A stretch of 63,908 bases of DNA, filler included, from Octopus bimaculoides (taxonomy: Eukaryota): the NCBI RefSeq assembly GCF_001194135.2. It is 5 parts of 5 records of this genome, joined end to end, with 100 filler letters (N's around TTAATTAATTAA, not from the genome) between each part and the next. Parts side by side here need not be neighbours in the genome. Positions count along the whole stretch, not along the records: positions 1 to 19,375 come from NC_068988.1; positions 19,476 to 40,923 come from NC_069000.1; positions 41,024 to 55,251 come from NC_068989.1; positions 55,352 to 61,998 come from NC_068995.1; positions 62,099 to 63,908 come from NC_068997.1. The stretch is one strand, 5' to 3'. Positions 8,898-63,048 of the stretch are shown piece by piece. Position 1 is the first letter of the stretch. Every line of letters begins with the position of its first letter. The position numbers were made by a program, and so were the translations under genes. Below the pieces are notes generated by a model, which saw nothing but the letters and a program-made list of their open reading frames with translations, searched no databases and was not told the origin of the DNA.

Positions 8898-8940
8898 ACC
8901 TCGCTGATGAGGTATAAAAATACTAAAACGAATCTGGAGT
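8898..8940 (+). ncRNA. Decayed hammerhead ribozyme motif
   Basis: CTGATGA-GGTAT-AAAA-ATACT-AAAAC; restoring one CpG (CT|AA to CC|GA) gives canonical helix II plus GAAAC; helices I and III damaged. Confidence 0.35.
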
Positions 8941-9499
8941 TGAATCCTTAAGTTTCAAAGATAATATTACAAATTGATCAGCGTTTAATTTAATTATTTC
9001 TCATTAGCTCTACAGCACTCTACACACTAAATTTAACCATGTTTTGTTCTGGTAGACAAATTGATAAATATGCAATTGTGAATAGTATATATCTGACCGA
9101 CGACAAAAGGAAATCAAATATTTCGGATATTCACATATTAATGCGTTGTTTTTAAATATGTCAAATGAAAAGTTAACTGAAGTAAAATTATTGCCAAATC
9201 AATTTCAATGATAGAAGATTAGTTTTCAGAAACATAATTTTGCAGGTATTTCTCAATAGAATCTTCTTTGAAAATTTCTCTTGGCTCTGAACATCCAGAC
9301 CCAAAGTTTTATTTTTTTTAAACAGATCTTTATGATATTACGTGTCGATAAAGAATTGCTTAATACCTTCTCGCTGGAAATAGTAGACAAACCATATTAT
9401 ATTTTCTAAAATACTTAATCCCTCAACAAATTCTAATCTTCTATACGTGAGACCCACAATGGAGACGGTGTCGCTGCTATGCATACAGACATCATGTAG

Positions 9500-9870
9500 T
9501 GTATCCAGAGGAAAGCCACTCGATTGACTGGCAGGAAACCTCTCGCAAACACGCACTGGCACTTGGCTCACACATATATGCTGTCACCTCTCAGGGCCGT
9601 TCTGCTGCAGTTGTAAAGGCCTCTGAATCTCGGTGATGACTGGTCTCGAGCCATCCTTCTTTCAGGAACTCAAAACTTATTTGTCTCTTCTCTCTATCGT
9701 CACTGAATATGTGTACTCCCCACATTCAGGCCTCGCACAAACCACTACACTCAGTCCTTCCCTTTCAAAATGTTATTCCTCTGCAACTGTCTCTCTTTCC
9801 CTGTTCTTTTTCTTACAGGTGCCAACTTGAAAACATTACAAGAGGAATATTAATGGCATTAAGCTCTCAA
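9500..9870 (+). mobile_element. Decayed CR1/Jockey-like LINE ORF2 3' end
   Basis: IQRKATRL motif at about 9503; later TNHYTQSF-like and NLKT(F)KRNINGIKL-like segments after frameshifts. Confidence 0.55.
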
Positions 9871-11482
9871 GGGAAGAAACCAATACTAAAATGAAGGGCA
9901 TGTTGAATAATATGATTCTGCATACACTGTGTCTGAAATCGACGAGGTGGTCACTGTCACACATACACACACGCACACACACACACAAACATACACACAC
10001 ACATACGTATCACAAATTTCTTTTTCGCTTCCATATATACACAGTGCCATATTGATGACAACATCTGTCATTCTTATTTTTTCTCTTTTCAGAAAATAAA
10101 GAAACGAGTGAGAGCTGGGGTTCCTGCAGGGTTTTTTTTAACCAAACTAATAAAAAGGCCTTTACCATCTCCGATGATCTATAACAGAGATCTCATTTAC
10201 CCATGACTTTTAAAATAGCATACGAAACGTGTTTTCCTTTTCTCCAGTTTCAAAATATATTAGTTCCGAAACAGCTAAGATAAAATAAAATAAAAATATC
10301 CAATAATCTATAATGAAACATCACAGCATTTAGCCGTATTTTATTCCAGAATGGAGACAAGTCATTGGAAGAGACTCCACGAGGTCACTCGATCTGATAG
10401 AAATAATAACCAAACTTTACTGCTTTAAATTGATAGGCAACACTAGGCAATGTAAACTTTGATATACAAAAAAGAAAACCGGATGCTTACGACCGGAATA
10501 TCTTTTATTATGCAGTAAGTCAACTCAGTGAGGGCCGACATGATTTAAACAACGTAACAGTTAAGAGAAAAAACAAGTTAGCAAACAAAACTACATACAC
10601 AGCCACCCCAAGCAGCCCACCTAAAGCTTATAATTTCTTTGGACTTGGTTACTAAATAGTAACTAAGTCACAACTTGAATTTCTGTGATAATTATATCAA
10701 AATTTATTTTATAAAGGTCAACTTTCATATTGCTTCACATCTATTGTACTTTATCCAAGCATTAGGCTGTCTTTCTTCTCAAATCTACACATGTTTGTAG
10801 CCATGACAACTTTCCATACTTTACGGTTTTCTAACTGCAAATTTGCAGCAATTCAAGTGATCCAGTAATTTTAAATCCTCCGTTAAGAAAAATAATATAA
10901 AAGAAAAAAAAAGCGATTTATTTCATTCTAGATTATTTTAATGTGACTTAACGAATTTTGTCTTGTAATCGTCTTAAGGTATATATCTTGAGGTATATAT
11001 CTTGATCAAGATGTCTACGATTATAATGACAAATATGTCATTCAATAGATAACAATTATATAACTTAGACAAAAATGAAAACCTTTCGAAAATTTGGTAA
11101 ATCAATCCATAAAATGTCTCTCCTGTTTTGTTGAGTCATTAAAAATCTTAAATAATAGGGATAAATTAAAATTTTAAGTAGCAAAATTAAATATTATCTT
11201 GGAAATTATGACAATGCAGCGAGAAAAATAAATATTTAGGAAGCGAGGAAAGCATTTTATGAACAAACGTTTATTCTTATTCTACAGTTGAAAGCAATTT
11301 AAAATTTGACAATTTCTTTGGTCGTTACTATAACACATGACATTAAAACATAGACAATGAGTATTGAAAACGATCACAAATACTAGAAATTAAATCCAAA
11401 CGAAAATTAACAAACGATTTTAAACAAAAAAAACTGACAGTAAACAATAAAAATGAGACGATGGTGATGGAGATGTTTTTAC

Positions 11483-11557
11483 CTTTGGAATCTCACTACA
11501 GGTCTCTCTGGCTGCTTTTCGGTAATCACAGTGTAAAACCATCCATTGAAGATCAAA
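11483..11557 (-). CDS. Collagen TSPN (laminin-G-like) domain, C-terminal exon: FDLQWMVLHCDYRKAARETCSEIPK
   Basis: Acceptor TCTTTTAATTTAG|, donor |GTAAAA; 75 nt, phase 0/0; FDLQWMVxxCD..A.RE.C.E.P is the characteristic end of FACIT collagen TSPN domains. Confidence 0.92.
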
Positions 11558-11738
11558 CTAAATTAAAAGAAAGGTCACATATTTAAATATTTGATACCTG
11601 AAAAGGAGGGAGGTTTAAAATATAGAAATATATCTAACGATATCTAAAGGGTACATTTAAGTATATAATTATAAATTGAAGAATGAATATCTTGTGAGGG
11701 AAATTTCAAAAATAGTAGCAAATGAATCTCGTAATAAA

Positions 11739-61057: not shown

Positions 61058-61131
61058 TGGCCGGATAACTGAAGAGATGTTGGCGTGGGTTCCCACCCCG
61101 GCATCCGAAACTCGGAGTTTTATCATGGCTA
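61058..61131 (+). ncRNA. Type I hammerhead ribozyme, near intact, GUU site
   Basis: TGGCC-G-GATAA-CTGAAGA-GATGTTGG(C-GTGGG-TT-CCCAC-C)CCGGCATC-C-GAAACTCGGAGT-T-TTATC-AT-GGCTA; in a ~200 bp element between (TA)n tracts. Confidence 0.75.
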
Positions 61132-61682
61132 CCGAATAAGTGTCACATATTTTTACAGATAAATTCCTCTATTTACATAATATCGAGGTCTCTTTCTTTC
61201 TCTTGTTATCCTTTCTATCAATATATATATATACTTTTTATGGATTAACAATTTTATCAATACATTCATGCGAAAAAATTCGCTATTTTCAATTGTTTCA
61301 CTTAAAAATGTTGGCAAACCGTCTCCATTTTGTGTATGTGATTATACAGCTAGGGGACAGTTATTCGAGAATCTACAGTTGCAACAACTGTGTGAGGCTG
61401 TGTCCTTGTTCCTAATGCTATTGTTATTGCTGTGTTAATTATAATCGACTTTATGTTGCGTAGATTAGTATAGATAACTTTAATGAAGTTCCTATTAAAA
61501 GTTATATTATATTTGTATAAGCGTAATTGTGAATGCATCTGTACAGTGCAATTAAACTGTATTCGACACGTTAACCTAGAGACATTTTACTAATACAAAA
61601 AGAAAAAGAAAAAGGCAAAGCAAAAGGCAAGGAATTGAAGAAGTCCCTATAGGGGTTACCGATCCTTATCTGTGTATCTTAT

Positions 61683-61998
61683 TTTGTTGTTGGCACTCCG
61701 TCGCTTACGACGTCGAGGGTTCCAGTTGATCCGATCAACGGAACAGCCTGCTCGTGAAATTAACGTGCAAGTGGCTGAGCACTCCACAGACACGTGTACC
61801 CTTAACGTAGTTCTCGGGGATATTCAGCGTGACACAGTGTGACAAGGCTGACCCTTTGAATTACAGGCACAACAGAAACAGGAAGAAAGAGTGAGAGAAA
61901 GTTGTGATGAAAGAGTACAACAGGGTTCGCCACTATCCCCTGCTCTTGGAGGTTTAGGTGTTTTCGCTCAATAAACACTCACAATGCCCGGTCTGGGA
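61683..61998 (-). mobile_element. SINE family E (head truncated by gap)
   Basis: Near-identical to 25682-26010. Confidence 0.92.
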
Positions 61999-63026
61999 NN
62001 NNNNNNNNNNNNNNNNNNNNNNNNNNNNNNNNNNNNNNNNNNTTAATTAATTAANNNNNNNNNNNNNNNNNNNNNNNNNNNNNNNNNNNNNNNNNNNNTA
62101 AGGTAAGAGAAGAAATGGGGCAACATGTAACAATTTGAAGTTGATCAGGAATATTGAATGATCATAGTTTAATTATGGCTAAGATAATATTTACAGCTGT
62201 TTCTGTTATTTTTTTTTTAGGTAAACTTGCGTTTATCTCGTTCCATGTAACAAACATTATCAGAATGATTTGTAATTTTCGAGAGGAATATTGACAGGAG
62301 AGAAAGGAAGAAACGGAAGAGAAAAAGGAAAGAGGAAAAAAACACTGGTATTAATTATTGATTTAATAATTTTTACCCTGTATTTATATAGTTAAATATT
62401 GAAATTCTTAGGTTGGATAATATACGGTGAATTTATTCACTGCTGCACTACTCTGAGTCTGTACGTTGCTTGGCGGCGATTTGAATTCTTTTTACATAAA
62501 GATGGAACTAAGTGCGCACGTGTATACTTTGTGTTTTCGGTACGTATTATAGTTTCATAATTAGGCATTTTCCAGTGACCTTACTGACGAGCCACGGATG
62601 GTTAATTAATCAGTTGATTGATTAATTAATTGATTTATTTGATCATTAGTGGCGAAAGTCATGGGTGTAGGGTTAACTGAATTTTTATTTCAGGCTACAT
62701 GCAATGTAAGAATATCTTTCGTGTTTTGGGTTTTGACTGCCTTTTCTAGCATGTAAGAAATCCACATGGTGGTCTCCTCTCCGTGTATAAATTCTTATAC
62801 ATTATTATGTGATAAAATATCTATGTCTTCTGACTTTTTATTACGCATGCTAACCACTTGTAATAATCATTAATTATTGATTTAATAATTTTTGTCTTGT
62901 ATTTATAGTCATTTATATATACCGGAGTAAGCACATGAAATGTGAAACAAGGTGGAAAACAAGAGTACTCAAATACTAGAGGTAGAGTAATATGCTTTAT
63001 TTAAAAGCAGCAGAAATATCACAAAG

Positions 63027-63048
63027 ACTGTTACTCAGAGTTTCACGT
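63027..63048 (-). ncRNA. 3' half of a hammerhead motif, truncated at a (GAT)n tract
   Basis: ACGT-GAAACTCTGAGT-A-ACAGT; helix III ACTC(T)GAGT parallels ACTC(G)GAGT at 61110. Confidence 0.4.

What the first reader, a model, noticed from the sequence alone, without database searches (positions are those of the whole stretch)
8898..63048. About a dozen minimal hammerhead motifs from several unrelated families in one 64 kb region
Seen: motifs at 8898(+), 11739(+), 17099(+), 18160(+), 19612(+), 32420(-), 32530(+), 36860(-), 37819(-), 52525(-), 61058(+) and 63027(-, half). Their helices share no sequence, yet nearly all have a palindromic or near-palindromic helix III (ACGT, ACATGT, ACTAG[T], ACTCGGGT, ACTC(G/T)GAGT). 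Two lie directly 3' of Penelope GIY-YIG relics in sense orientation, and many abut (TA)n. Inference: this genome carries a large, diverse load of ribozyme-bearing Penelope tails or retrozymes (about 1 per 5 kb here). That could be a pervasive source of self-cleavage sites and antisense-paired RNA in introns of a lineage known for heavy RNA processing.
Basis: partly seen in the sequence, partly recalled or inferred. Interest (0 to 1): 0.8.

Follow-up and report, generated by a model that had tools for sequence, protein, structure and literature searches.

The report
Penelope hammerheads, one with altered core
This animal DNA is strewn with small hammerhead self-cutting-RNA motifs, mostly decayed and likely left by Penelope-type jumping genes (a known arrangement), but one very abundant family has a U where hammerheads normally keep a conserved A, and whether it still cuts is untested.

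Summary
The catch is real but overstated. Of 12 sites, 2 are intact canonical type I hammerhead motifs (36904-, 61069+; 0 of 300 shuffles reach 2), 2 have intact helices but a changed core base 6 (19616+, 37851-), 3 have an intact core with damaged helices, 4 have core lesions, and 1 is a half motif. Five sites belong to two repeat families, so the helices are not all unrelated. Two sites lie 3' of Penelope endonuclease relics. Minimal hammerheads with palindromic helix III in Penelope-like elements, at thousands of copies per genome, were described in 2014, and this scan has met them in other genomes. Reads and contigs from two organisms show U at core position 6 in 89-95% of family depth, while positions 7 and 17 vary freely, as in a hammerhead. 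I found no A6U family in the papers I could search; the key 2017 survey was not available. No pile-up of RNA ends marks the cut site, no host gene was found, and cleavage is untested.

The parts
36866..36910 (-). Intact canonical type I hammerhead motif (core base 3 at 36904; helix I 6 bp, helix II 4 bp, helix III ACTCGGGT)
36700..37030 (-). About 330-nt element between two (TA)n arrays; the hammerhead caps a long rod-like stem at about 36826-36951
   Evidence: z -7.75; z -8.72
61064..61124 (+). Intact type I hammerhead motif with long helix II (core base 3 at 61069; helix I 5 bp, helix II 8 bp plus an apical stem)
19612..19647 (+). Family B motif, this copy C at core base 6 (core starts 19616); helix I 4 bp, bulged A, helix II 4 bp, ACGT
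   Evidence: family state
37818..37858 (-). Family B motif, U at core base 6 (core starts 37851); helix I 7 bp, bulged A, helix II 4 bp, ACGT; tail ends at (TA)n
17780..18035 (+). Frameshifted 3' end of a Penelope-like GIY-YIG endonuclease, 72% identical to RT+EN proteins P0001/P0010
18159..18204 (+). Family A minimal hammerhead 3' of the relic: core intact (18164), bulged A, helix II 6 bp, helix I only 2 bp in this copy
32420..32465 (-). Family A copy: core intact (32460), helices I and II weakened
32527..32567 (+). Family A copy, inverted next to the former, cut off inside the core and G12A; carries the 3' tail extension (to about 32653)
17106..17148 (+). Motif with intact core (17112) and ACATGT palindrome, weak helices; no second copy in the window
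52525..52569 (-). Decayed motif (A9U, C15.2G; helix II 6 bp), about 130 nt before a (TA)n run
53405..53674 (-). Decayed GIY-YIG relic of a second Penelope-like lineage, upstream of the 52563 motif in sense
   Evidence: (profile E 3e-4; tblastn E 0.002)
11739..11782 (+). Decayed motif (U16.1A, helix II 3 bp, first helix I pair broken)
8898..8940 (+). Doubtful decayed motif (G12A, broken 15.2-16.2 pair); falls in a tier not above chance
63032..63044 (-). Half motif only; not a hammerhead

Best explanation
The sites are real hammerhead motifs or their relics, likely the 3' terminal-repeat ends of several families of Penelope-like retrotransposons, and most copies here would not cut. How it works: a Penelope-like element carries a minimal type I hammerhead just 3' of its RT-endonuclease gene (shown here for family A and, more weakly, for 52563). 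Its helix III is only a short palindrome, so it is predicted to cut only when two copies in one RNA, as in a tandem element, pair through that palindrome (from PMC4209133). Insertion starts from the 3' end and is usually cut short, often with an inverted piece beside it, so the genome fills with short motif-bearing tails (inferred; the 32460/32527 pair fits), which then decay (shown: 8 of 12 sites have broken helices, core lesions or are partial). Family B is a very abundant member of this set whose source elements carry U at core base 6 (shown from reads and contigs); it keeps the rest of the core and both helices while bases 7 and 17 vary, so its source elements were likely under selection for the fold, probably with weak or condition-dependent cutting (inferred). 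Its link to a Penelope gene rests on architecture only.
For: Excess over shuffles. Endonuclease relic 130 nt upstream of 18164 matching RT-bearing proteins at 72%; second relic upstream of 52563. Inverted pair with a one-sided tail extension at 32420-32653, the arrangement drawn in PMC8557442 Fig. 2. Bulged base before helix II, G10.1-C11.1 and palindromic helix III in families A and B match the published consensus. Family B: T at 19619 in 1494 of 1683 and 1395 of 1548 RNA reads and 94.6% and 94.9% of contig depth; position 7 C 13-35%, G 20-30%; position 17 U 32-38%. Among listed rows 1 of 30 constrained positions is polymorphic against 3 of 6 free positions (p 0.01) and 13 of 64 flank positions (p 0.03).
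Against: No Penelope gene was tied to family B (searches found nothing), nor to 36904, 61069, 17112, 8904; the suspected relic upstream of 11744 was not confirmed. No pile-up of RNA ends at the family B cut site (table 6). 41 weaker variant rows were not shown, and local read alignment may favour conservation at the motif. Deep mutagenesis of another hammerhead found low activity for all single changes in the CUGA turn (PMC9901934). Seven sites are singletons with no covariation evidence.
Confidence: 0.8

Rival explanations
1. Family B is a dead hammerhead: an element with an inactivating A6U change was amplified anyway because cutting is not needed for its spread, and the motif is kept only by descent.
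For: Changes at base 6 lower activity strongly in Mg2+ (A6C: PMC3088659 section 8; PMC7151607; PMC9901934). Naiad elements spread without canonical hammerheads (PMC8557442). No read-end pile-up.
Against: U6 is shared by copies with three different bases at position 7, so the free positions diversified on a U6 background while paired and core positions did not.
Confidence: 0.45
2. Some families (36904, 61069, perhaps B) are non-autonomous retrozyme-like elements that make small circular RNAs, not broken tails of full Penelope elements.
For: The 36904 element is about 330 nt, has a canonical-size hammerhead and folds as a long rod (z -7.75), in the size range of animal retrozymes (PMC7229834); no gene relic next to it.
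Against: No tandem copies in the window; retrozymes are defined by tandem units and are themselves argued to derive from Penelope terminal repeats (10.64898/2026.07.22.740005).
Confidence: 0.2
3. The dispersed copies are a pervasive source of self-cleavage in host transcripts.
For: Family B sequence is present in RNA at about 147 reads per million, on both mate orientations alike, 97-98% running on into other loci; two copies are intact.
Against: Most copies are damaged and isolated; monomeric minimal hammerheads did not cleave in vitro; no pile-up of ends; no host gene found.
Confidence: 0.1
4. The motifs are chance matches in AT-rich DNA.
For: Loose descriptors hit 1-7 times per shuffle; 8904 and 63044 cannot be told from chance.
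Against: Strict tiers 0 of 300; family membership and gene context for 6 sites.
Confidence: 0.03

Closest known systems
Minimal hammerheads (min-HHR) in the terminal repeats of metazoan Penelope-like elements (Cervera and De la Pena 2014, PMC4209133)
   Same: Type I, short helix I, bulged base before helix II, G10.1-C11.1, palindromic helix III, many unrelated families per genome, mostly single copies from truncated elements, pairs on opposite strands within 100-700 bp, thousands of copies.
   Different: All 56 representatives in its Fig. S3 have A at base 6 and none is from a cephalopod; family B has U6. The density in this window may be higher than the published totals, but rests on 2-4 motifs.
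A6C natural hammerhead of phage Bcep176 (PMC3088659; PMC7151607)
   Same: Natural change at core base 6 with the rest of the core kept.
   Different: A single phage sequence with C, tested and shown to prefer Mn2+; here a high-copy animal repeat family with U, untested.
Non-LTR retrozymes of animals (PMC7229834; 10.64898/2026.07.22.740005)
   Same: Type I hammerhead in a 300-nt-scale repeat; up to 126,247 motifs in axolotl, about 5000 in a mussel.
   Different: Defined by tandem units; none of the sites here is in a tandem array.

Membership tests
Type I hammerhead | Core CUGANGA...GAAA with A15.1-U16.1 and H17 | tested here: met
   Met at 5 of 12 sites (36904, 61069, 17112, 18164, 32460)
Type I hammerhead | Core base A6 in family B | tested here: not met
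   U in 89-95% of depth; A under 5% in both DNA-type runs, since their two C>A places are accounted for elsewhere
Type I hammerhead | Helices I and II form around the core | tested here: met
   Helix I at least 4 bp and II at least 3 bp at 4 of 12 sites (36904, 61069, 19616, 37851); damaged at the rest
Type I hammerhead | Self-cleavage after position 17 | not testable with these tools
   Read-end check on family B showed no pile-up; standard RNA-seq is a weak test
Penelope min-HHR | Palindromic or absent helix III | tested here: met
   9 of 12 sites
Penelope min-HHR | Unpaired base between 9 and 10.1; G10.1-C11.1 | tested here: met
   Families A and B; not at 36904 (A-U, no bulge)
Penelope min-HHR | Lies 3' of an RT/GIY-YIG gene in the terminal repeat | tested here: inconclusive
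   Met for family A and weakly for 52563; not shown for family B or the other six singletons
Penelope-like element | Tandem or inverted terminal-repeat arrangement with one-sided tail | tested here: met
   32460(-)/32527(+) pair
Non-LTR retrozyme | Tandem units each with a hammerhead | tested here: not met
   No tandem motif-bearing units in the window; whole genome not held
Non-LTR retrozyme | Circular RNA product | not tested
   Only family B was laid on reads; no joint in RNA reads was listed

The most novel reading that the evidence does not exclude
Family B is a natural, selected hammerhead variant with U at the normally invariant core base 6, amplified to between several thousand and over a hundred thousand copies in at least two related animals. 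It still cuts, but only under a special condition (dimer plus Mn2+ or a protein), by analogy with the A6C phage variant, and it is invisible to every descriptor that fixes CUGA.
Probability: 0.25. Interest if true: 0.68.

Novelty: new variant of a known kind. Interest (0 to 1): 0.4.

Why it matters
The broad finding is ordinary: Penelope elements are known to litter animal genomes with minimal hammerheads. The family B core matters because published searches fix A6 and would miss it, and because it offers a direct test of an open question, whether cutting is needed for these elements to spread: if U6 dimers are dead, a highly successful family spread without cleavage while keeping the fold; if they cut, the natural core is more tolerant than assumed.

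Tried and rejected
Rfam scans gave no hammerhead. No whole genome is held, so no genome-wide density, clustering or strand test. Scans for related loci found nothing: protein P0003 in metagenome contigs, family B pattern in metagenome and viral contigs. Antisense translation of family B, one of three frames, found no protein. The suspected relic upstream of 11744 gave no hit (profile E 0.22). Pfam named none of the three endonuclease relics. The N-terminus of P0017 resembles the antisense of family A, but only at E 0.16-0.26, so I do not count it. Single-strand folds of 11 sites gave z below -3 for 2 (36904, and 8904 in a non-hammerhead fold). No RNA holder was listed for the stretch searched. 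No RNA-only excess of A>G places in family B (4 and 4 in RNA, 3 and 3 in DNA; T>C 7 and 7 against 4 and 4), which is no test of editing. Summed contig depth ratio 1.7e5 is not a copy number; dividing by 31 for overlap gives 5.5e3 as a rough floor. Lunse et al. (PMC5785218) and Arkhipova 2017 (PMC5850863) were not held.
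Full report
Setting. The window is 63,908 bases with 5,565 N and 33% G+C, rich in microsatellites and short interspersed repeats. No whole genome is held. The runs that hold it are labelled organism A and B; that it looks like an octopus-type genome is my recalled impression and comes from no call. Among the 150 longest of 285 non-repetitive open frames of 48 residues or more, Pfam named only two mariner transposase fragments, so no host gene and no intron context is shown.

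Observation. I located the core at each of the 12 places and scanned both strands with descriptors written after seeing the sites. The strict one (intact core, helix I at least 4 bp, helix II at least 3 bp, helix III loop up to 6 nt) finds 36904(-) and 61069(+), against a mean of 0.003 in 300 local dinucleotide shuffles (0 of 300 reach 2). The same descriptor with a non-A base at position 6 finds 19616(+) and 37851(-) (mean 0.013, 0 of 300); with a change at U4, G5 or A9 it finds nothing. Looser tiers give 2 vs 0.24 (3 of 100), 6 vs 1.06, 13 vs 3.57 and 15 vs 5.45 (0 of 100 each) and, for two core lesions, 9 vs 7.07 (4 of 15). So the excess is real, but the tally is 2 intact, 2 intact except base 6, 3 with intact core and damaged helices (17112, 18164, 32460), 4 with core lesions (8904, 11744, 32527, 52563) and 1 half motif (63044). 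Intact canonical density is 34 per Mb with an interval of 4-124; counting all 11 full-length sites gives 189 per Mb. Rfam reported no hammerhead.

Families and context. Self-comparison groups 18164, 32460 and 32527 (family A, 90-92%) and 19616 with 37851 (family B, 79.5%); the other seven have no second copy. Family A at 18164 lies about 130 nt 3' of a frameshifted endonuclease end (17780-18035) that matches RT-bearing proteins at 72% (E 7e-31); more distant relatives carry GIY-YIG labels. The 32460/32527 copies form an inverted pair, one cut off inside the core and alone carrying the tail extension, the layout given for Penelope insertions in PMC8557442 (passages read). A profile of 124 such proteins found two more relics, 53674-53405(-) upstream of 52563 (E 3e-4) and 50312-50524(+) (E 1e-3). 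The 36904 motif caps a long rod inside a 330-nt element set between two (TA)n arrays. Four of 12 sites lie within 150 nt of a (TA)6+ run; 19% of random positions lie within 250 nt.

Family B. Read from the CTGAAGA box, family B has no proper helices (first helix I pair G-A, second helix II pair C-U). Three bases upstream, helix I is 4 or 7 bp, a bulged A precedes a 4-bp helix II closed by G-C, and only base 6 departs. I laid two RNA read sets and two contig sets on 19476-19745 at 80% likeness: 1899 and 1771 reads, 7690 contigs (organism A) and 5612 (organism B). At base 6 (19619) T is read in 1494 of 1683 and 1395 of 1548 reads and in 94.6% and 94.9% of contig depth; in both contig sets the two C>A places tallied are 19576 and 19657, so A is under 5%. 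Base 7 is C in 13-35% and G in 20-30%; base 17 is U in 32-38%. These are the two core positions a hammerhead leaves free, which fixes the register, and they must have diversified on the U6 background. Among listed rows, 1 of 30 constrained positions is polymorphic (C15.2, a CpG), against 3 of 6 free positions (Fisher p 0.01) and 13 of 64 flank positions (p 0.03); I left out places where this copy alone differs, 41 weaker rows were not shown, and local alignment may favour the core. The family is in RNA at about 147 reads per million with both mate orientations equal, 97-98% of reads run on into other loci, and no place has a pile-up of ends. Summed depth at the core is 1.7e5 times the unique flank; the tool warns that this is no copy number, and allowing 31-fold overlap gives a rough floor of 5.5e3. 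No gene was tied to family B.

Mechanism. Shown: the motifs, their damage, the two families, the relics, U6. From print: minimal hammerheads sit in Penelope terminal repeats, showed no cleavage as monomers and low cleavage as dimers (PMC4209133, parts 1-2 of 4 and supplement parts 1-2 of 3 read; review passages PMC6765202). Inferred: these sites are 3' ends of truncated insertions of several lineages, isolated and mostly inert. For family B, A6C is a known natural change with low activity in Mg2+ and good activity in Mn2+ (PMC3088659 section 8; PMC7151607 parts 1-2 of 4 and a supplement search), and single changes in the CUGA turn gave low activity in one mutagenesis study (PMC9901934 passages). 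I put weak or conditional cutting and a dead but inherited motif at similar odds, with clear activity under a special condition at about 0.25.

Comparison with print. High numbers are known: about 2,000 plus 1,300 in Schistosoma, 4,000 in coelacanth, 9,000 in Xenopus; over 6,000 in a coral, about 5,000 in a mussel, 126,247 in axolotl (PMC7229834 passages). Depletion of retrozymes from introns is reported for Xenopus (10.64898/2026.07.22.740005, part 1 of 5 and passages). Penelope expansions in octopuses are reported without mention of ribozymes (PMC13282606 and PMC8967140 passages). All 56 representatives of the 2014 alignment have A6. Searches for hammerhead with A6U, core variants, and hammerhead with octopus or cephalopod listed no paper on such a family; I saw PMC11662667 only as a listing, and PMC11014351 passages held no base-6 term. 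The 2017 survey by Lunse et al. was not held and figure supplements of PMC3088659 were not read; either may already hold this variant. Earlier notes of this scan describe the same general finding in other genomes and none mentions A6U.

Verdict. A correct catch of a known kind, with an inflated count and an unsupported host-RNA story; one abundant family with a changed core base lifts it to a new variant. Interest 0.4.

Noticed in passing
   Followed up: partly
window 36700-37030 (-): Element inserted in (TA)n whose hammerhead caps a rod of about 50 base pairs; helix I itself is a palindrome. Best candidate for an active ribozyme in the window.
   Followed up: partly
window 35425-35482 (+): Isolated 3' tail piece (90% identical) of the 61069 element, lacking the motif, inserted beside a mariner fragment.
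   Followed up: partly
window 10300-11650 (+): By eye a very decayed retroelement reading frame upstream of the 11744 motif; not confirmed by three searches.
   Followed up: partly
window 18685-19082, 25676-26081, 47093-47287, 61679-61998; and 473-921, 20060-20500, 23151-23387, 26991-27179, 46505-46988, 48399-48601: Two abundant short interspersed repeat families; a tRNA-like match at 15669-15737 (-) is probably the head of such a repeat.
   Followed up: no
window 54627-54935 (-) and 35196-35393 (+): Mariner transposase fragments (Pfam HTH_48, Transposase_1).
   Followed up: no
window 35913-36245 (-): 111-residue open frame that looks like the C-terminal endonuclease end of an R2/Dong-type non-LTR element (recalled resemblance; no Pfam hit); related piece at 30040-30274.
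   Followed up: no
window 19376-19475, 40924-41023, 55252-55351, 61999-62098: Paired 44-base N runs around a 12-base spacer: scaffold joins, so neighbouring pieces may not be truly adjacent.
   Followed up: no
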